Assembly (NCBI RefSeq): GCF_000027125.1
Contig: NC_017626.1
Strand: one strand, 5' to 3'
DNA length: 64,000 nt
Source of the DNA: Escherichia coli 042
GTDB lineage: Bacteria; Pseudomonadota; Gammaproteobacteria; Enterobacterales; Enterobacteriaceae
Positions within the stretch are counted from its first letter, which is position 1, and every line of letters begins with the position of its first letter. The notes beneath the pieces are model-generated. The model did not search any database. It was not told the DNA's origin and was given only the letters and a program-made list of their open reading frames with translations. Below, piece by piece: positions 1,589-49,625 of this stretch. The position numbers and the translations under genes were made by a program.

Positions 1589-2066
1589 GGTGTTACTCTC
1601 GTCAGACGCGAATAGCCTGATGCTAACCGAGGGGAAGTTCAGATACAACAAAGCCGGGAATTACCCGGCTTTGTTATGGAATAAGGCGGTGCCTAACTCG
1701 ACGTTTCGCCCGATGGTTGATATAGCTACGCTGATATCAGAAGTTGGACGGCAGGCACCTTGTTGTGCGTCATTCGAATTTTATGTAGCACGTCCCGAAG
1801 GGGCTGACATAAGTCGGTGAATGAGCCACTGGTTACTATTATGCAGTAACTGTGCCAATAAAGAAAATAGTTTGGTAACGTACTGATTATACGCCGCTTT
1901 GAGGGATTTATGGCTTCTTCGCTATTTGAATGTAAATCAGCCACTGTGTCGCTAAAAAGAGACAACTTAAGATAAACTTATTAGATAATATTAAAATCAA
2001 TAAGTTAAATGTCGCCAGAAAGCGACACGGCACACCACCCATTGTCGTGATTTACAGACACAAAAA

Positions 2067-10705: not shown

Positions 10706-11029
10706 TCGTTTTTCCTTAAACAAGGAATGCAGCCGTTCAGATTAGCCCTTACATCTCCCCAAAACTGAACGTGCGAGTTATTGAGGGTGCATGCTGCACT
10801 CCACACCAGAGCTTTGACGACACCACTCGTTTCAATGGGGGAATTCTGTGGCATGGTATAAAGCACAGCATAATCGCCAATAACGAAGCCAATTTTAATG
10901 TACTTCCGAATTGGCGGTCACGTTAATCTTTCCATCAATATTGTTTTCTTCGTAAAGGCTCGAGTTTTTATGCTAAAGATTACAAGTTGCTTGTAAAAGA
11001 TAACCGCCCTGATCCATAATCGCTCTTGT

Positions 11030-11108
11030 TGAGGGTGCGTGCTGCACAAAATTAAAGTTAAAAAGTAAAACCCCCGTTCCTTACCAGTTCGGGGGTTTTA
11101 CTTTATAA
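11030..11108 (+). ncRNA. ohsC: Candidate OhsC antitoxin sRNA (approximate ends)
   Basis: Plus-strand segment holding the second copy of a 19-nt direct repeat (11039-11057) shared with the shoB 5' region (10781-10799), ending in a hairpin plus T-run; -10-like cataat at 11025-11030. Confidence 0.45.
11081..11108. terminator. Bidirectional terminator (acpS operon / candidate ohsC)
   Basis: cccccg ... cggggg hairpin flanked by an A-run and a T-run. Confidence 0.6.
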
Positions 11109-12247: not shown

Positions 12248-12976
12248 TCATTCATAATGTGTTTTCACCGTTCGCTTAGGCATAAACTGCCGGAACAGTT
12301 CCCTGCTCTTTAATGGTTTACCGCCAAGATACGGCTTAAGCGCCATGCGGGTAAAGCGTTTCGCGGCGCGTAGTGTGTCTGCGTCAGGAAATTCCCGCGC
12401 GTTTAACGCTTTTAACTGCCTTCCAGTGAACGTTTTATTGTCGATAACGACGCTTGCGATAAACCCTTTTTCTTCGCGATAACGATACGTCATGGTGTCA
12501 TCTACCGGCTCGCCGCTACCCGCACAATGGGTAAAATTGACGCCATAGCCCAGATGCCCGAGCAGTGCCAGTTCAAAGCGGCGCAGCGCGGGTTCTGGCG
12601 TACCAGTGGCACCTGCAAGAGACTGAATGCAGTGCAAGTAATCGAAAAAGAGTTCAGAGAAGCGCGTCTCGTATTCCAGCACGCGGGAAAGAAGTTCGTT
12701 GATGTACAAACCGCTGTAAAGGGTGATACCGCTTAATGGCAGCGCCAGCGAGACAGCTTCGGCACTGCGCAGTGTTTTGACTTCACCACGCCCACCGAAG
12801 CGAAGCAAGAGAGGGGTGAAAGGTTGTAATGCACCTTTCAGAGTAGAGCGTTTAGAGCGTGCGCCTTTGGCAACCAGACGCACGCGACCCGATTCCTCCG
12901 TGAAGACGTCCAGCATCAGGCTCGTTTCGCTCCACGGGCGACTATGCAGGACAAATGCGCGCTGCCAGCCTTCCAT
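12248..12976 (-). CDS. recO: DNA repair protein RecO
   Basis: 242-aa ORF recognised as RecO. Confidence 0.93.
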
Positions 12977-12987
12977 CGGAGTTACTC

Positions 12988-14600
<1,613 letters not shown>

Positions 14601-14602
14601 TC

Positions 14603-14698
14603 AGCACACGAAACAGACCTGATATACATGGCTCTGCTAACTGCTTCGCTGCAGTTTCAGTTTACCGGTATATGGGGACCAACGCTGTTTCGTGTGCC
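14603..14698 (-). promoter_or_regulatory. rnc leader stem-loop (rncO-like RNase III autoregulatory site)
   Basis: 12-bp inverted repeat cacacgaaacag (14605-14616) / ctgtttcgtgtg (14685-14696) in the 5' leader of rnc. Confidence 0.6.
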
Positions 14699-14842
14699 GT
14701 GGCAACCTGGAGGTGCCAACCTTAAACTTCGGGGGAATATTCTATACACAACGACGGGGGATGTCGTTAGCCACGGGAGATTTATCTCATAAATAATTCA
14801 CGTTGTCGCCATAACGGCGACAACGTGAACGAAGATGGGCTA

Positions 14843-15817
14843 TTAATGGATGCCGCCAATGCGACTTAAGCGCACACCTGTCGGCCATTCGCCTTCTTGC
14901 TTATCGAAGCTCATCCAGATAGCCGTTGCCCGACCGACCAGATTCGCTTCCGGCACAAAGCCCCAGTAACGGCTGTCCGCGCTGTTGTCGCGGTTGTCAC
15001 CCATCATGAAGTATTGTCCCGGAGGAACAATCCAGGTTGCCAGTTGTTGCCCTGGCTGCTGGTAATACATCCCCACCTGATCCTGCGCAATCGGCACTGT
15101 CAGAATGCGGTGCGTCACATCACCCAGTGTCTCTTTACGCTCGGAAAGACGAATTCCATTTTCTTTGGTTTCGTTTTTCGGCACTTCAAAGAATCCGCTG
15201 GTCGCTTCCCCACCATTACGGCGTGAGAAGGTCTGAACGAAATCGCTCGGTTCCACGTTTGAGTAGGTGACCGGCAGCGCGTTTTCACACGCCTGGCCGG
15301 AACTGCATCCCGGTTGAATCGTCAGCTCTTTTGAGACCGGATCGTAAGTGACTTTATCGCCCGGTAAACCCACCGCGCGCTTGATGTAATCAAGCTTTGG
15401 ATCTTCCGGATATTTAAAGACCACGATATCGCCGCGTTTCGGATGACCGGTTTCGATCAGCGTTTTCTGGTAGATAGGATCTTTAATGCCATAAGCAAAC
15501 TTCTCTACCAGAATAAAATCACCGATTAACAGAGTCGGCATCATCGAACCTGACGGGATCTGGAACGGTTCATAAATAAACGAACGCACAATCAATACGA
15601 TAGCCAGTACCGGAAAAACAGAAGCACCGGTTTCCAGCCAGCCAGGCTTCGGCGCAACCTTTTTCAACGTTGCTTTATCCAGTGAGTCACCGGCAGCCGC
15701 CTGCGCCGCTGCCTGACGTTCCCGCCGTTTAGGTGCGAAAAAGAATTTATCCACGCACCATAAAATGCCCGTCACTAGTGTGGCAATCACCAGAATCAGG
15801 GCAAACATATTCGCCAT
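14843..15817 (-). CDS. lepB: Signal peptidase I
   Basis: 324-aa ORF recognised as LepB. Confidence 0.95.
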   Translation of the reverse strand: MANMFALILVIATLVTGILWCVDKFFFAPKRRERQAAAQAAAGDSLDKATLKKVAPKPGWLETGASVFPVLAIVLIVRSFIYEPFQIPSGSMMPTLLIGDFILVEKFAYGIKDPIYQKTLIETGHPKRGDIVVFKYPEDPKLDYIKRAVGLPGDKVTYDPVSKELTIQPGCSSGQACENALPVTYSNVEPSDFVQTFSRRNGGEATSGFFEVPKNETKENGIRLSERKETLGDVTHRILTVPIAQDQVGMYYQQPGQQLATWIVPPGQYFMMGDNRDNSADSRYWGFVPEANLVGRATAIWMSFDKQEGEWPTGVRLSRIGGIH

Positions 15818-15832
15818 GCCAACTCCTAAGGG

Positions 15833-17632
<1,800 letters not shown>

Positions 17633-17829
17633 AAAGTATGATTATTGTGCCTTAATGCCCGGTTAACCAGGCTTTTAGAAGTCGCTGTTCTGAGCTTAAC
17701 GTCTGTATTAATAGAAACGCCGCATTCTACACTACAACATTGAGGCGAGGAAATGTTCATACCGTATGGATTGTGGTATCTGGAAACGTCCTCGCATTTG
17801 TTATGCAAAATGCAACAAAGCCAGTGAAA

Positions 17830-18309
17830 TCACTGGCTCGCGTCTTCCGAAGATGTTTCAAATCGCACAAGGCCAGGCGGCAATGCCACGCTTAAGATGA
17901 TCGGTTGCCATTCAGACCGGGCAGCAAACTTTCGAGAGCCGCCACGTGCAATCAGGAATCCACCAACGCCACCGAGAATCGCACCGCATAATGCTGCAAT
18001 ATCTGAAGCAAAGAGTAGCTGAAATAGTGAAGCGATGAGGAATAGTCCCACCAACGGCGACATATAAACCAGTAATGCGGAGCTAAGCAGGCTGCCTTCG
18101 GCGATCCCCAATTCCACTTTTTGCCCCGGCACTAACGGTTCATCACAGGGTACGACAATGGTATGCGTGGTTTGCGGGCCAAGTTTATTCAACACGCGGC
18201 TACCGCAACCGGCGCGTGAAGCGCAGCTGCTGCATGAGGCTTTAACATCACAACTAACCAGCGCCTGCCCGTTTTCCCAGGAGATGACGGTAGCCCACTC
18301 TTTGATCAT
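17830..18309 (-). CDS. rseC: Sigma-E regulatory protein RseC
   Basis: 159-aa ORF; position in the rpoE-rseABC operon. Confidence 0.9.
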   Translation of the reverse strand: MIKEWATVISWENGQALVSCDVKASCSSCASRAGCGSRVLNKLGPQTTHTIVVPCDEPLVPGQKVELGIAEGSLLSSALLVYMSPLVGLFLIASLFQLLFASDIAALCGAILGGVGGFLIARGGSRKFAARSEWQPIILSVALPPGLVRFETSSEDASQ

Positions 18310-19262
18310 TGCGCTGCCCCGAACTTAATATTCTCGGCAATGCGTTTCGCCGTTTGCGGCGGCAGTTCACCGACAATGGTGATTTCGGCGTTATCACGTA
18401 CGCTTGTACTGACGGTTCTGCGTCCGGTGCGCAACATCTGATCGGTGCTCGATGGCGTAGCGCGGTTAACGTTTACCGAAAAGCTGAATAATCCGTCGGA
18501 ATAGAGACGTGATTCGATAGGCATGTTGTCCATCGTCGGTAGCGGACGTCGACTACTGGAAACTTCGCTAAAACCCTGTGGCAACCAGGTTGGCGTCCAG
18601 CTGAATTTAGCTTTTTCACCTACAGGAACAGAAAGCAACGGCGGCAAATTTGCCTTCGCCAACGTCTGCATACTGCTGCTGATATCCTGATTGACATTAA
18701 AAGCAATCACGCGAAATTGTTCCAGCGTTTCACCATCGCGATCAAGGAGATCAACCCGCATCGGTAATTTCGATTCGGTGTCCATCCACACGATGTAGCT
18801 GTAGCGTGTACCATCTCGGGCAACCACACGAATGACTTCGCAAAGACGATCAGCAATACGCGTGCGCCCGACGGAGATAAAGTCGTAGTAAGGAGAAAGG
18901 CGTTTGAAATCGGTATAGATGAGCGATGGTAGAGAATCAACAATGTAATCGCCATTAAGCGTGAACGGTTCAAGTCCCGGTTCAAAATAGCTGATTTCAT
19001 TGCCGCGCTGTACCACTTCCCGGCGCGGGCCATCCATTTGCAACAATTGTGCAAGAGGACGGTTATCGAGGCGTGCATGTCGATAACGCAGAGACTCAAC
19101 ACCCTGTTTATTGATGCTGATGAATGACAGCTCGTAATTCAGTGACTGACTGGCCAGGTTCATCTGCTGTAATAACGCCCCGGACGCGGGAGTGGCCGAG
19201 GCGTTAGCAGAGAATAACAGGCTACCTGTCACTAATGACATGGCAAACCAAAGTTGCTTCAT
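18306..19262 (-). CDS. rseB: Sigma-E regulatory protein RseB
   Basis: 318-aa ORF with signal peptide. Confidence 0.92.
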   Translation of the reverse strand: MKQLWFAMSLVTGSLLFSANASATPASGALLQQMNLASQSLNYELSFISINKQGVESLRYRHARLDNRPLAQLLQMDGPRREVVQRGNEISYFEPGLEPFTLNGDYIVDSLPSLIYTDFKRLSPYYDFISVGRTRIADRLCEVIRVVARDGTRYSYIVWMDTESKLPMRVDLLDRDGETLEQFRVIAFNVNQDISSSMQTLAKANLPPLLSVPVGEKAKFSWTPTWLPQGFSEVSSSRRPLPTMDNMPIESRLYSDGLFSFSVNVNRATPSSTDQMLRTGRRTVSTSVRDNAEITIVGELPPQTAKRIAENIKFGAAQ

Positions 19263-24790: not shown

Positions 24791-24819
24791 GCCTGATGCG
24801 CTACGCTTATCAGGCCTAC
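24791..24819. repeat. REP / palindromic unit
   Basis: gcctgatgcgctacgcttatcaggcctac, REP-like palindrome. Confidence 0.65.
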
Positions 24820-24854
24820 ATGGCTCATGCAATATATTGAATTTGCACGATCTT

Positions 24855-38051: not shown

Positions 38052-38171
38052 ATGCCTGGCAGTTCCCTACTCTCGCATGGGGAGACCCCACACTACCATC
38101 GGCGCTACGGCGTTTCACTTCTGAGTTCGGCATGGGGTCAGGTGGGACCACCGCGCTAAGGCCGCCAGGCA
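38052..38171 (-). rRNA. rrfG: 5S ribosomal RNA
   Basis: 120 nt, near-identical to the E. coli 5S sequence as I remember it (reverse complement). Confidence 0.95.
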
Positions 38172-38262
38172 AATTCTGTTTATCAGACCGCTTCTGCGTT
38201 CTGATTTAATCTGTATCAGGCTGAAAATCTTCTCTCATCCGCCAAAACATCTTCGGCGTTGT

Positions 38263-41166
<2,904 letters not shown>

Positions 41167-41359
41167 TCACAACCCGAAGATGTTTCTTTCGATTCATCAT
41201 CGTGTTGCGAAAATTTGAGAGACTCACGAACAACTTTCGTTGTTCAGTGTTTCAATTTTCAGCTTGATCCAGATTTTTAAAGAGCAAATATCTCAAACAT
41301 CACCCGAAGATGAGTTTTGAGATATTAAGGCAGGTGACTTTCACTCACAAACCAGCAAG

Positions 41360-41435
41360 TGGCGTCCCCTAGGGGATTCGAACCCCTGTTACCGCCGTGA
41401 AAGGGCGGTGTCCTGGGCCTCTAGACGAAGGGGAC
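41360..41435 (-). tRNA. gltW: tRNA-Glu in the 16S-23S spacer
   Basis: 76-nt exact match to E. coli tRNA-Glu (GTCCCCTTCGTCTAGAGGCCCAGGACACCGCCCTTTCACGGCGGTAACAGGGGTTCGAATCCCCTAGGGGACGCCA) on the minus strand. Confidence 0.95.
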
Positions 41436-41520
41436 GTATCAGCCTGCTTCGCAAGACGCCTTGCTTTTCACTTTCTATCAGACAATCTGTGTGAGCACTG
41501 CAAAGCACAGTTCTTTAAGG

Positions 41521-43062
<1,542 letters not shown>

Positions 43063-43502: not shown

Positions 43503-46076
43503 TTACTGGACGGCGACAATCCGGTCTTCATTAACTTCCAGGCGAATAACTTTACCCGGAACCAATTCACCAGACAGTATTTGCTGTGCCAGCGGGTTTT
43601 CGATCTGCTGCTGGATAGCACGTTTCAGAGGACGTGCACCATAGACCGGATCGTAACCGTTCTCGCTCAGCAGTTTCAGCGCCTCGTCAGAAATGTGGAT
43701 TTCATAACCACGTTCTTCCAGACGTTTGTACAGACGTTTCAACTGAATCTGCGCAATCGACGCAATGTGCTGTTCACCCAGCGGATGGAAGACCACCACT
43801 TCATCGATACGGTTAATGAATTCCGGACGGAAGTTATGGCTTACCACACCGAGCACCAGCTCTTTCATGTGCGCATAATCCAGTTCACCGAAGCGTTCCT
43901 GAATCAAATCGGAACCGAGGTTAGAGGTCATAATGACAACCGTATTACGGAAGTCGACCGTTCTCCCCTGCCCGTCAGTCAGACGCCCATCATCCAGTAC
44001 CTGCAACAGAATGTTGAAGACATCCGGATGCGCTTTTTCCACTTCATCCAGCAGTATGACGGAATACGGACGACGACGCACCGCTTCGGTCAGGTAGCCA
44101 CCTTCTTCATAACCGACATATCCCGGAGGCGCACCAACCAGACGAGACACCGAGTGTTTCTCCATAAACTCGGACATATCGATACGGACCATCGCCTCGT
44201 CGCTATCAAACATAAAGTTCGCCAGCGCCTTACAAAGCTCAGTTTTCCCCACACCCGTTGGGCCGAGGAACAGGAATGAACCAATCGGGCGATTCGGGTC
44301 AGCAAGCCCTGCGCGGCTACGACGAATAGCGTTAGATACCGCATCAACCGCTTCGTTCTGACCAATAACGCGATGGTGCAGCTCTTGCTCCATACGCAGC
44401 AGTTTTTCGCGCTCGCTTTCCATCATGCGAGAAACCGGAATCCCCGTCCAACGCGCCAGCACTTCAGCAATTTCGGCGTCGGTCACTTTATTACGCAACA
44501 GACGCATAGTTTTGCCTTCGAGCTGCGTTGCGGCTTCCAGTTGCTTTTCCAGTTCCGGGATTTTGCCGTATTGCAGTTCAGACATCCGCGCCAGGTCCCC
44601 CACACGGCGAGCCTGTTCAATAGCGATTTTCGCCTGTTCCAGTTCCGCTTTAATGGTCTGCGTACCAGAAAGCGATGCCTTCTCTGCTTTCCACTCTTCT
44701 TCTAACTCAGAGTACTGACGTTCTTTGTCGCTCAGTTCTTCGTTGAGCATATCCAGACGTTTTTTACTGGCTTCATCAGACTCTTTCATTAACGCCTGTT
44801 GTTCCAGTTTGAGCTGGATGATACGGCGATCGAGTCGGTCGAGTTCTTCTGGTTTTGAGTCAATCTGCATACGAATGCTGGATGCTGCTTCATCGATCAG
44901 GTCGATGGCTTTATCCGGCAGCTGACGGTCAGCAATGTAGCGATGTGACAACGTCGCCGCTGCAACAATTGCCGGGTCAGTAATTTGCACATGGTGGTGC
45001 AGCTCGTAACGTTCTTTCAGGCCACGCAGAATCGCAATGGTATCTTCAACAGAAGGCTCGGCAACAAACACTTTCTGGAAACGACGTTCCAGCGCAGCAT
45101 CTTTTTCGATGTACTGGCGATATTCGTCAAGCGTCGTGGCACCTACGCAGTGCAATTCACCACGCGCCAGCGCCGGTTTCAGCATGTTTCCGGCGTCCAT
45201 TGCGCCATCTGCTTTACCCGCGCCGACCATGGTATGTAATTCGTCGATAAACAGGATGACGTTGCCTTCCTGTTTAGCAAGATCGTTAAGTACGCCTTTT
45301 AAACGTTCTTCAAACTCACCGCGATATTTCGCCCCAGCCACCAGCGCGCCCATATCCAGCGCCAGTACGCGGCGGCCTTTCAACCCTTCCGGCACTTCGC
45401 CGTTGATGATACGCTGCGCCAGACCTTCAACGATGGCAGTTTTACCGACGCCTGGTTCACCAATCAGTACCGGGTTATTTTTAGTACGACGTTGCAGCAC
45501 CTGAATGGTACGGCGAATTTCTTCATCACGACCAATCACCGGATCGAGTTTACCCTGTTCGGCTCGTTCGGTAAGGTCGATGGTATATTTTTTCAAAGCC
45601 TGACGTTGGTCTTCAGCACCTTGATCGTTCACGCTTTCACCTCCACGCATTTGTTCAATCGCTTGAGTAATGTTGGCGGTGGTCGCCCCTGCTGCTTTCA
45701 GGATGTCGGCCAGCGTGCCGCGAGACTCAAGTGCCGCCAGAACGAACAGTTCTGACGAGATAAAGTTATCACCACGTTTTTGCGCCAGCTTGTCGCAAAG
45801 ATTAAGAACGCGCACCAGATCCTGTGATGGCTGGACATCACCACCAGTACCTTCAACCTGCGGTAAACGATTTAATGCCTGATTGATATCTGTGCGCAAC
45901 TGGCCAGCATTAATGCCAGCGGATGTTAATAAAGGACTAACCGAACCCCCTTCCTGATTCAGCAGGGCGCTCATTAAATGAAGTGGTTCGATGAATTGGT
46001 TGTCGTGCCCGAGTGCAAGTGATTGGGCATCGGCAAGAGCAAGCTGGAATTTATTAGTAAGACGATCCAGACGCAT
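43503..46076 (-). CDS. clpB: Chaperone / disaggregase ClpB
   Basis: ORF 43503..46088; start trimmed to [18 protein letters not shown] (857 aa); two AAA+ modules ([16 protein letters not shown]). Confidence 0.96.
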
Positions 46077-46114
46077 AACTCCTCCCATAACGGATCAAAG
46101 TTGCTACTGGAGAT

Positions 46115-46144
46115 TAAATGAGGTCATCCCTCAATTATTCAAGG
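46115..46144 (-). promoter_or_regulatory. Sigma-32 heat-shock promoter of clpB
   Basis: Minus strand CCTTGAA, 14-nt spacer, CCTCATTTA. Confidence 0.7.
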
Positions 46145-46205
46145 TTATTGACCAGATTAATGTGAAAAGAAAATCACGCGTACCGGATCGTCTTGATTCT
46201 TTAGG

Positions 46206-49446: not shown

Positions 49447-49500
49447 TGACAGCGTGAAAACAGTACGGGTACTGTACTGAAGTCACTTAAGGAAACAAAC

Positions 49501-49548
49501 ATGAAACACACACCGTTTTTCTTCGCATTCTTTTTTACCTTCCCCTGA
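49501..49548 (+). CDS. pheL: pheA leader peptide (Phe-rich)
   Basis: Hand translation: MKHTPFFFAFFFTFP* (15 aa, 7 Phe). Not in ORF track. Confidence 0.9.
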   Translation: MKHTPFFFAFFFTFP

Positions 49549-49594
49549 ATGGGAGGCGTTTCGTCGTGTGAAACAGAATGCGAAGACGAACAAT

Positions 49595-49625
49595 AAGGCC
49601 TCCCAAACCGGGGGGCCTTTTTTAT
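49595..49625 (+). terminator. pheA attenuator terminator
   Basis: aggcctccc-aaacc-ggggggcct hairpin followed by TTTTTTATT. Confidence 0.8.

What the first reader, a model, noticed from the sequence alone, without database searches (positions are those of the whole stretch)
14603..14698. Extended stem-loop in the rnc leader (RNase III autoregulation site)
A 12-bp perfect inverted repeat (cacacgaaacag / ctgtttcgtgtg) separated by ~70 nt lies between the rnc ATG and the lepB stop on the rnc coding strand. It matches the known arrangement in which RNase III cleaves its own leader to destabilise the rnc-era-recO transcript.
Basis: partly seen in the sequence, partly recalled or inferred. Interest (0 to 1): 0.25.

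Follow-up and report, generated by a model that had tools for sequence, protein, structure and literature searches.

The report
Known RNase III self-regulation hairpin (rncO)
This is the already described hairpin in the leader of the E. coli RNase III gene, which the enzyme cuts to destabilise its own mRNA; it is real but ordinary.

Summary
A perfect 13-nt inverted repeat (14604-14616 / 14685-14697, 68 nt apart) extends to a 15-bp helix that closes a 98-nt irregular hairpin on the minus strand. It lies between the lepB stop and the rnc ATG. It is far above chance: shuffles give 0.03 such repeats per window, and the 102-nt fold has z = -5.8.

The segment is stem-loop II of rncO (Rfam RF00552). 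The window matches the full 214-position model at 258 bits against a gathering score of 43. The window is E. coli, 100% identical over this stretch to many genomes, and the element is present in 5425 of 5426. The gene order is lepA-lepB-rnc-era-recO.

According to the literature, RNase III cleaves this hairpin. The cut leaves an unstructured 5'-monophosphate end that RNase E attacks, giving negative feedback on rnc-era.

One finding of mine goes beyond the claim. Across 36 Enterobacteriaceae the 15-bp base and a 2x2 internal loop are nearly invariant. The apical ~50-60 nt is hypervariable, polymorphic within E. coli, and absent in 15 species, and the pattern across genera suggests repeated loss or gain. 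I could not verify the exact cleavage positions because the primary papers were not available.

Verdict: already known, low interest.

The parts
14516..14730 (-). rncO, the complete post-transcriptional operator of the rnc operon (5' UTR plus the first 18 codons of rnc)
   Evidence: Rfam RF00552 full-length match, 258.4 bits against a gathering score of 43. The 5' end at 14730 agrees with a 160-nt 5' UTR as used in PMC10037077, counted back from the ATG at 14570.
14602..14699 (-). Stem-loop II, the feature reported: a 98-nt irregular hairpin and the RNase III target
   Evidence: MFE fold of a single hairpin with 37 bp, -41.2 to -42.3 kcal/mol, z = -5.78. This is the Rfam consensus helix. Nucleotide 129 of the UTR, the 3' limit of the cleavable fragment used in PMC10037077, falls at 14602.
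14685..14699 (-). 5' arm of the conserved 15-bp basal helix (CGGCACACGAAACAG)
   Evidence: The helix is 98.9% paired across 36 species, with 10 of 15 pairs invariant, one A-U to C-G compensatory swap in 13 of 36 and one G.U to A-U change in 9 of 36.
14602..14616 (-). 3' arm of the conserved 15-bp basal helix (CUGUUUCGUGUGCUG)
14617..14684 (-). Upper part of stem-loop II: a 2x2 internal loop (CG at 14684-14683, GU at 14618-14617), a conserved 4-5 bp helix (UUGGU/AUCAG), then a hypervariable apical extension
   Evidence: Folds. The internal loop and the next helix are conserved in all 36 species. The apex is variable or absent and polymorphic within E. coli.
14700..14718 (-). Stem-loop I, a small 5'-proximal hairpin (GGCACCUCCAGGUUGCC)
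   Evidence: Fold and Rfam consensus. It is 91.7% paired across species, and one pair takes five pair types (AU 9, GC 9, GU 4, UA 4, UG 3).
14571..14601 (-). Unpaired spacer between stem II and the rnc ATG, including the translation initiation region. This becomes the exposed 5' segment after cleavage.
   Evidence: Unpaired in the MFE and centroid folds and in the Rfam consensus. Its role as the RNase E entry segment is inferred from PMC3867540.
14531..14550 (-). Stem-loop III, an 8-bp hairpin inside the first codons of rnc
   Evidence: Rfam consensus. It is 99.7% paired but essentially invariant, so there is no covariation for or against it, and coding constraint cannot be separated out.
14739..14767 (-). 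Promoter-like site of the rnc operon (ACGACA, 17 nt, TAGAAT)
   Evidence: Consensus scan, 9 of 12 matches. The block AACGACA...GTATAGAATATT is conserved wherever the alignment reaches it. No transcription start was mapped here.
14796..14830 (-). lepB terminator-like hairpin (16 pairs, then a T-rich tail); this is context, not part of rncO
13890..14570 (-). rnc (RNase III), both the regulated gene and the regulator
   Evidence: TIGR02191 equivalog, 247.8 bits against a cut-off of 166. Annotated as rnc in RefSeq.
12988..13893 (-). era, overlapping the rnc stop codon and co-regulated according to the literature
   Evidence: TIGR00436 equivalog. PMC8708148 states that cleavage destabilises both the rnc and era mRNAs.

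Best explanation
The inverted repeat is the base of stem-loop II of rncO, the cis-acting 5'-leader 'operator' of the E. coli rnc-era(-recO) operon. Transcription starts about 160 nt upstream of the rnc ATG, near 14730. The leader folds into a small hairpin I, a 98-nt irregular hairpin II and a hairpin III within the first codons. While hairpin II is intact it acts as a 5' structure that keeps the message stable. RNase III, the product of the first gene, binds the double-stranded stem and cuts it. This removes the protective structure and leaves a monophosphorylated, unstructured 5' end. RNase E attacks that end, so the whole message decays quickly. Abundant substrates such as rRNA precursors compete for the scarce enzyme, so the loop sets RNase III synthesis according to free enzyme. 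Shown here: the sequence, the fold, family membership, gene context, identity with E. coli and cross-species conservation. Taken from the literature and not tested here: cleavage, the RNase E step and the feedback. Inferred by me: the near-invariant 15-bp base with the 2x2 internal loop and the next 4-5 bp is the functional core. That core amounts to roughly two helical turns. The apical extension is dispensable or only modulatory.
For: Full-length Rfam RF00552 match at 258.4 bits against a gathering score of 43. The flanking genes are lepB upstream and rnc, era and recO downstream on the same strand. The stretch is 100% identical to E. coli chromosomes and present in 5425 of 5426 complete genomes. 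The hairpin is stable and significant (z = -5.78), and the spacer to the ATG is unpaired. All 36 orthologous leaders from about nine genera fold as a single hairpin. The basal helix is 98.9% paired with one compensatory swap, against 37-42% paired when the partners are slid by 1-3 columns. Short-hairpin orthologs still score 156-194 bits. Literature on the mechanism: PMC3867540, PMC5371410 and PMC8708148. PMC10037077 uses UTR nt 1-129, which ends at 14602 at the foot of the stem, as an in vivo RNase III-cleavable module assayed by primer extension.
Against: Nothing in the data contradicts it. There are limits. No experiment can be run here. The primary papers (Bardwell 1989, PMC401487; Matsunaga 1996, PMC1369450) and the supplementary cleavage table of PMC6212723 were not available, so I could not place the exact cut positions on the sequence. 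The basal helix is mostly invariant (10 of 15 pairs never vary), so covariation support is thin and rests on two variable pairs. The orthologs were retrieved with a 34-nt pattern from the spacer and ATG region, which limits them to close relatives and makes the invariance of 14566-14599 an artefact of ascertainment.
Confidence: 0.97

Rival explanations
1. The hairpin is an intrinsic terminator or attenuator that ends lepA-lepB transcription or attenuates read-through into rnc.
For: It is a strong hairpin in the lepB-rnc intergenic region.
Against: No U-run follows the stem; the next bases are GAAUUGUUGACGCAUUU. The terminator scan did not call it. It called a different hairpin just after the lepB stop at 14830-14796, with a T-rich tail. 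That hairpin lies upstream of the promoter-like site at 14767-14739, so the feature reported here lies inside the rnc transcript. A 98-nt irregular hairpin is also unlike the compact GC-rich stems of terminators.
Confidence: 0.01
2. The hairpin controls translation of rnc by masking or exposing the ribosome-binding site, rather than controlling mRNA stability.
For: It lies only 31 nt upstream of the ATG, and stem III overlaps the first codons.
Against: The 31 nt before the ATG are unpaired in both the MFE and centroid structures, and the stem does not include them. [quoted passage not shown] Reviews describe a stability mechanism.
Confidence: 0.015
3. The palindrome works at the DNA level, or on the opposite strand, as a protein operator or an antisense RNA or ORF.
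For: Inverted repeats can be protein-binding sites. A 92-aa ORF (14514-14792, + strand) and a weak plus-strand Rfam hit (22.9 bits) overlap the region.
Against: Arms 68 nt apart are not the geometry of a dimeric operator. The plus-strand Rfam hit is below the gathering score (22.9 against 43) and is the expected mirror image of a hairpin. The G.U pairs that extend and populate the helix exist only on the minus-strand RNA. The plus-strand ORF crosses a region full of indels between species, which would destroy any reading frame.
Confidence: 0.005

Closest known systems
rncO (Rfam RF00552), the post-transcriptional operator of the E. coli rnc operon (Bardwell et al. 1989; Matsunaga, Simons and Simons 1996)
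   Same: Everything tested is the same: sequence (100% identical to E. coli genomes), position in the rnc 5' UTR, three stem-loops and a full-length match to the covariance model. This is the element itself.
   Different: Nothing differs.
The RNase III site in the rpsO-pnp leader (PNPase autoregulation)
   Same: RNase III cleaves a long 5'-leader hairpin, and this triggers rapid decay of the downstream message (PMC5371410; PMC8708148).
   Different: In pnp the regulated product (PNPase) is not the enzyme that makes the first cut, and both enzymes are needed (general knowledge plus reference titles). In rncO the nuclease regulates itself directly. No sequence similarity was sought or seen.
RNase E autoregulation through the rne 5' UTR
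   Same: An endoribonuclease limits its own synthesis by acting on a structured element in its own long 5' UTR (general knowledge, not tested here).
   Different: The enzyme, the recognition rules (single-stranded AU-rich sites plus a hairpin sensor) and the gene are all different.
Processing-type RNase III substrates (rRNA precursor stems, phage T7 R1.1)
   Same: These are irregular double-stranded stems of about two helical turns or more with internal loops, cut by the same enzyme (PMC3867540).
   Different: Those cuts mature or stabilise the products. In rncO the cut starts decay.

Membership tests
rncO (Rfam RF00552) | Scores at or above the curated gathering score of the family's covariance model, over the full model | tested here: met
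   258.4 bits against 43, model positions 1-214 of 214, E = 8e-62, not truncated. Reproduced in the whole-window scan.
rncO (Rfam RF00552) | Located in the 5' leader of rnc, on the rnc strand, reaching into the first codons | tested here: met
   Match at 14730-14516 on the minus strand. The rnc ATG is at 14570, rnc matches TIGR02191 at 247.8 bits, and lepB lies upstream.
rncO (Rfam RF00552) | Three stem-loops (I, II, III), with a long irregular central hairpin II | tested here: met
   An independent MFE fold gives stem I and the 98-nt hairpin II. The Rfam consensus adds stem III. Overall 91.3% of cells are paired across 36 species, against 37-42% with slid partners.
rncO (Rfam RF00552) | Structure maintained in orthologs despite sequence change | tested here: met
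   All 36 orthologs fold as a single hairpin. There are compensatory changes in the basal helix (A-U to C-G in 13 of 36) and in stem I. All 20 long apical inserts have negative z-scores at a median identity of about 63%. Caveat: most basal pairs never vary.
rncO (Rfam RF00552) | RNase III-dependent cleavage within stem-loop II | not testable with these tools
   Published for E. coli (PMC3867540; in vivo primer extension on UTR nt 1-129 in PMC10037077). The window is identical in sequence to E. coli. The exact cut positions could not be retrieved.
rncO (Rfam RF00552) | Cleavage shortens the half-life of the rnc-era message, giving negative feedback | not testable with these tools
   Literature only: PMC3867540, PMC5371410, PMC8708148.
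Intrinsic (Rho-independent) terminator | Compact GC-rich stem followed directly by a U-run | tested here: not met
   The scan does not call the feature and no T-run follows 14602. The lepB terminator-like site is a separate hairpin at 14830-14796.

The most novel reading that the evidence does not exclude
The apical ~50-60 nt of stem-loop II may be an evolutionarily labile tuning module rather than part of the operator core. It is absent in 15 of 36 Enterobacteriaceae species, which have 47-50-nt hairpins. Both length classes occur within Citrobacter and among genomes labelled Kosakonia, and the module is the only polymorphic part within E. coli, including a 6-nt deletion allele. Even so, it stays more base-paired than shuffled sequence in all 20 species that have it. 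If its length or shape sets how efficiently RNase III cuts its own leader, lineages would differ in the set-point of cellular RNase III. The short form would define a natural minimal operator of about two helical turns.
Probability: 0.3. Interest if true: 0.3.

Novelty: already known. Interest (0 to 1): 0.07.

Why it matters
The element matters biologically because it sets the cellular level of a global RNA-processing enzyme and of the essential GTPase Era. But it was described in 1989-1996, it is a curated Rfam family, and it is already used as an engineered RNase III reporter. Finding it in an E. coli window adds nothing new. The comparative observation has modest value: a conserved minimal core with a dispensable, fast-evolving apex points to a natural minimal operator. 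It also points to possible lineage-specific tuning of RNase III autoregulation, which could be tested with simple reporter swaps. A practical point is that RefSeq/PGAP records carry no feature for it, so annotation-based scans will keep flagging it as unexplained.

Tried and rejected
1. I tried to read the primary papers (PMC1369450, PMC401487) and the Court et al. review (PMC6311387). None is held. The supplement of PMC6212723, which lists the known rnc cleavage sites, is also not held. Further searches for cleavage detail found nothing usable. The exact cut positions are therefore not given.

2. Column-based covariation for the upper stem is unreliable, because the apex is full of indels and cannot be aligned (helices 3-5 are 65-90% paired, with many gaps). 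I replaced it with per-species folds and shuffle z-scores of the insert.

3. RNAalifold on eight stem II segments recovered only the base, the internal loop and the next helix. Some of my hand-picked coordinates were a few bases off register, so I use this only as a qualitative check.

4. I tested whether the apical segment is a dispersed palindromic or mobile repeat. This is rejected: there is exactly one place per genome in 5425 genomes and none on plasmids.

5. The terminator, translational-masking, DNA-operator and antisense readings were considered and rejected; see the rival explanations.

6. The plus-strand Rfam rncO hit (22.9 bits) and the mir-2001 hit on the lepB terminator hairpin (20.1 bits against a gathering score of 74) are sub-threshold hairpin look-alikes.

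Full report
OBSERVATION. The minus-strand sequence between the lepB stop and the rnc ATG contains a perfect 13-nt inverted repeat. Its arms are at 14604-14616 and 14685-14697, 68 nt apart.

As RNA on the rnc strand the helix extends to 15 bp (14699-14685 with 14616-14602) by adding a G.U and a C-G pair. It closes a single 98-nt irregular hairpin. The repeat is not a chance feature:
- The whole 64-kb window holds only three perfect inverted repeats of 13 nt or more within 100 nt. The other two are a hairpin inside the ohsC match and the lepB terminator. Shuffles give a mean of 0.03.
- The 13-mer has no other near-match in the window.
- The 102-nt segment folds at -42.3 kcal/mol against -24.8 +/- 3.0 for dinucleotide shuffles (z = -5.78, 0 of 200).

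WHAT IT IS. A scan of 14300-15000 against Rfam gives a full-length match to RF00552, rncO. The match covers 14730-14516 on the minus strand, at 258.4 bits against a gathering score of 43 and E = 8e-62. The whole-window scan reproduces it. The inverted repeat is the base of the family's long central helix, stem-loop II.

The neighbouring ORFs are lepA (15833-17632), lepB (14843-15817), rnc (13890-14570), era (12988-13893) and recO (12248-12976). All lie on the minus strand and all match NCBIfam equivalog models. The stretch 14500-14860 is 100% identical to many E. coli chromosomes and is present in 5425 of 5426 complete E. coli genomes, flanked by annotated lepB and rnc. So the window is E. coli and the feature is the rncO element itself, not a relative of it.

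ANATOMY (minus strand).
- A terminator-like hairpin with a T-rich tail follows lepB at 14830-14796.
- A promoter-like site (ACGACA, 17 nt, TAGAAT) lies at 14767-14739 and is conserved in the orthologs where the alignment reaches it.
- PMC10037077 uses 'rnc 5'-UTR nucleotides 1-160'. Counting back from the ATG at 14570 puts +1 at 14730, which is where the Rfam model begins.
- Stem-loop I is at 14718-14700.
- Stem-loop II is at 14699-14602. It consists of a 15-bp base, a 2x2 internal loop (CG/GU), a 5-bp helix (UUGGU/AUCAG) and an irregular apical extension.
- The next 31 nt (14601-14571), up to the ATG, are unpaired.
- Stem-loop III (14550-14531) lies within the first codons of rnc.
- The same paper uses UTR nt 1-129 as a module that RNase III cuts in vivo, assayed by primer extension. 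Nucleotide 129 is 14602, the last base of the stem.

MECHANISM. This part rests on the literature, not on tests here. Reviews and experimental papers say that E. coli RNase III cleaves an irregular hairpin in its own 5' UTR. The cut creates an unstructured 5'-monophosphate end that RNase E recognises, so the message decays rapidly. The enzyme is scarce and is titrated by abundant substrates such as pre-rRNA, so this gives growth-rate-responsive negative feedback (PMC3867540; PMC5371410). The cleavage destabilises both the rnc and era mRNAs (PMC8708148). The folded structure fits this account: a long double-stranded stem near the 5' end is followed by a single-stranded segment that a cut in the 3' arm would expose. 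I could not retrieve the exact cleavage positions, so I do not state them.

COMPARATIVE TEST. A pattern from the spacer and ATG region retrieved 39 species-level loci from Citrobacter, Salmonella, Escherichia, Kosakonia, Superficieibacter, Enterobacter, Phytobacter, Intestinirhabdus and several MAGs. I aligned 36 distinct full-length leaders.

With the Rfam structure mapped onto the alignment, 91.3% of cells are paired, against 37-42% when partners are slid by 1-3 columns. The basal helix is 98.9% paired. Ten of its 15 pairs never vary. One pair switches A-U to C-G in 13 of 36 sequences, and one switches G.U to A-U in 9 of 36. Stem I has one pair that takes five pair types. Stem III is invariant and lies in coding sequence, so it is uninformative.

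Two caveats apply. The invariance of 14566-14599 is built in by the search pattern, and the sample is limited to close relatives of E. coli.

WHAT I FOUND BEYOND THE CLAIM. The upper part of stem II cannot be aligned.
- Folding each ortholog on its own gives a single hairpin in all 36, but in two size classes. Twenty species (E. coli, E. albertii, Salmonella and many Citrobacter among them) have 88-104 nt and 30-39 bp. Fifteen species have 47-50 nt and 18-19 bp. One is intermediate at 64 nt.
- The short forms keep exactly the 15-bp base, the 2x2 internal loop and a 3-4 bp helix under a small loop. They still score 156-194 bits on RF00552.
- Both classes occur within Citrobacter and among genomes labelled Kosakonia, which suggests repeated loss or gain.
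- In the 20 long forms the variable insert folds better than its dinucleotide shuffles in every case (z from -0.66 to -4.38), at a median pairwise identity of about 63%.
- Within E. coli the 68 nt between the arms is the polymorphic part: 1525 genomes are at least 99% identical, 3711 are 95-99%, and 189 are 80-90%. It is single-copy in every genome.
- Three sampled alleles differ only in the apex, one by a 6-nt deletion. All keep a single hairpin at about -40 to -41 kcal/mol.

My inference is that the base, the internal loop and the next helix, roughly two helical turns, form the functional core. The apex would then be dispensable or modulatory.

RIVALS.
- A terminator is excluded. There is no U-run, the scan does not call it, and the real terminator-like hairpin sits upstream of the promoter-like site.
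- Translational masking is unlikely. The initiation region is unpaired, and a cited title reports autoregulation independent of translation.
- A DNA-level or plus-strand function is unlikely. The arms are 68 nt apart, G.U pairs exist only on the minus-strand RNA, the plus-strand Rfam hit is sub-threshold, and the plus-strand ORF crosses an indel-rich region.

VERDICT. Both the observation and the interpretation are confirmed. This is the already described rncO stem-loop II in E. coli itself, so novelty is 'already known' and interest is low (0.07). The only mildly new point is the modular evolution of the hairpin apex. It deserves a simple reporter-swap experiment, but it does not change what the element is.

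Noticed in passing
window 14617-14684 (-); loci L001-L039: Stem-loop II of rncO comes in two length classes across Enterobacteriaceae: 47-50 nt in 15 of 36 species and 88-104 nt in 20, with one 64-nt intermediate. The 15-bp base and the 2x2 internal loop are shared by all. Both classes occur within Citrobacter, which suggests repeated loss or gain of the apical ~50-60 nt.
   Followed up: yes
window 14630-14670 (-); L041, L042, L043: Within E. coli the apex of the hairpin is the polymorphic part (189 genomes are only 80-90% identical over 68 nt). One allele has a 6-nt deletion plus two substitutions. The base and flanks are invariant and the fold energy is unchanged.
   Followed up: partly
window 14796-14830 (-): A perfect 14-nt inverted repeat with a 5-nt loop (16 pairs counted) and a T-rich tail lies 13 nt after the lepB stop. 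It is the likely lepA-lepB terminator, upstream of the rnc promoter-like site.
   Followed up: partly
window 14516-14842: RefSeq/PGAP E. coli records annotate no feature in the lepB-rnc intergenic region, even though it matches a curated Rfam cis-regulatory family.
   Followed up: partly
window 17514-18345 (+): Rfam AsrC (RF02746, antisense RNA of rseC mRNA) matches at 506.5 bits, opposite the rseC region and the start of lepA. The same family also matches in nine of the twelve related loci scanned (L021 and L003 had none).
   Followed up: no
window 11028-11104 (+): Rfam ohsC antitoxin sRNA (RF02495, 106.6 bits). A perfect 13-nt inverted repeat at 11062/11092 lies inside it, and it is one of only three such repeats in the window.
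   Followed up: no
window 38054-43062 (-): A complete rRNA operon: 16S at 41521-43062, a tRNA at 41363-41435, 23S at 38263-41166 and 5S at 38054-38169. A StyR-44 match lies in the spacer at 41174-41282. These are the abundant RNase III substrates said to titrate the enzyme away from rncO.
   Followed up: no
window 1683-1830 (-), 24812-24854 (-), 46057-46195 (-), 49500-49625 (+): Other Rfam matches above gathering score: GlmY, ES036, RyfD (Ysr155) and the Phe leader.
   Followed up: no
window 14514-14792 (+): A 92-aa ATG ORF runs antisense across the whole rnc leader. It crosses the indel-rich apex, so it is almost certainly not a gene.
   Followed up: partly
window 14700-14718 (-): Stem-loop I shows clearer covariation than stem II. 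One pair takes AU, GC, UA, GU and UG in different species. Superficieibacter and Enterobacter variants replace the whole helix with a different paired sequence.
   Followed up: partly
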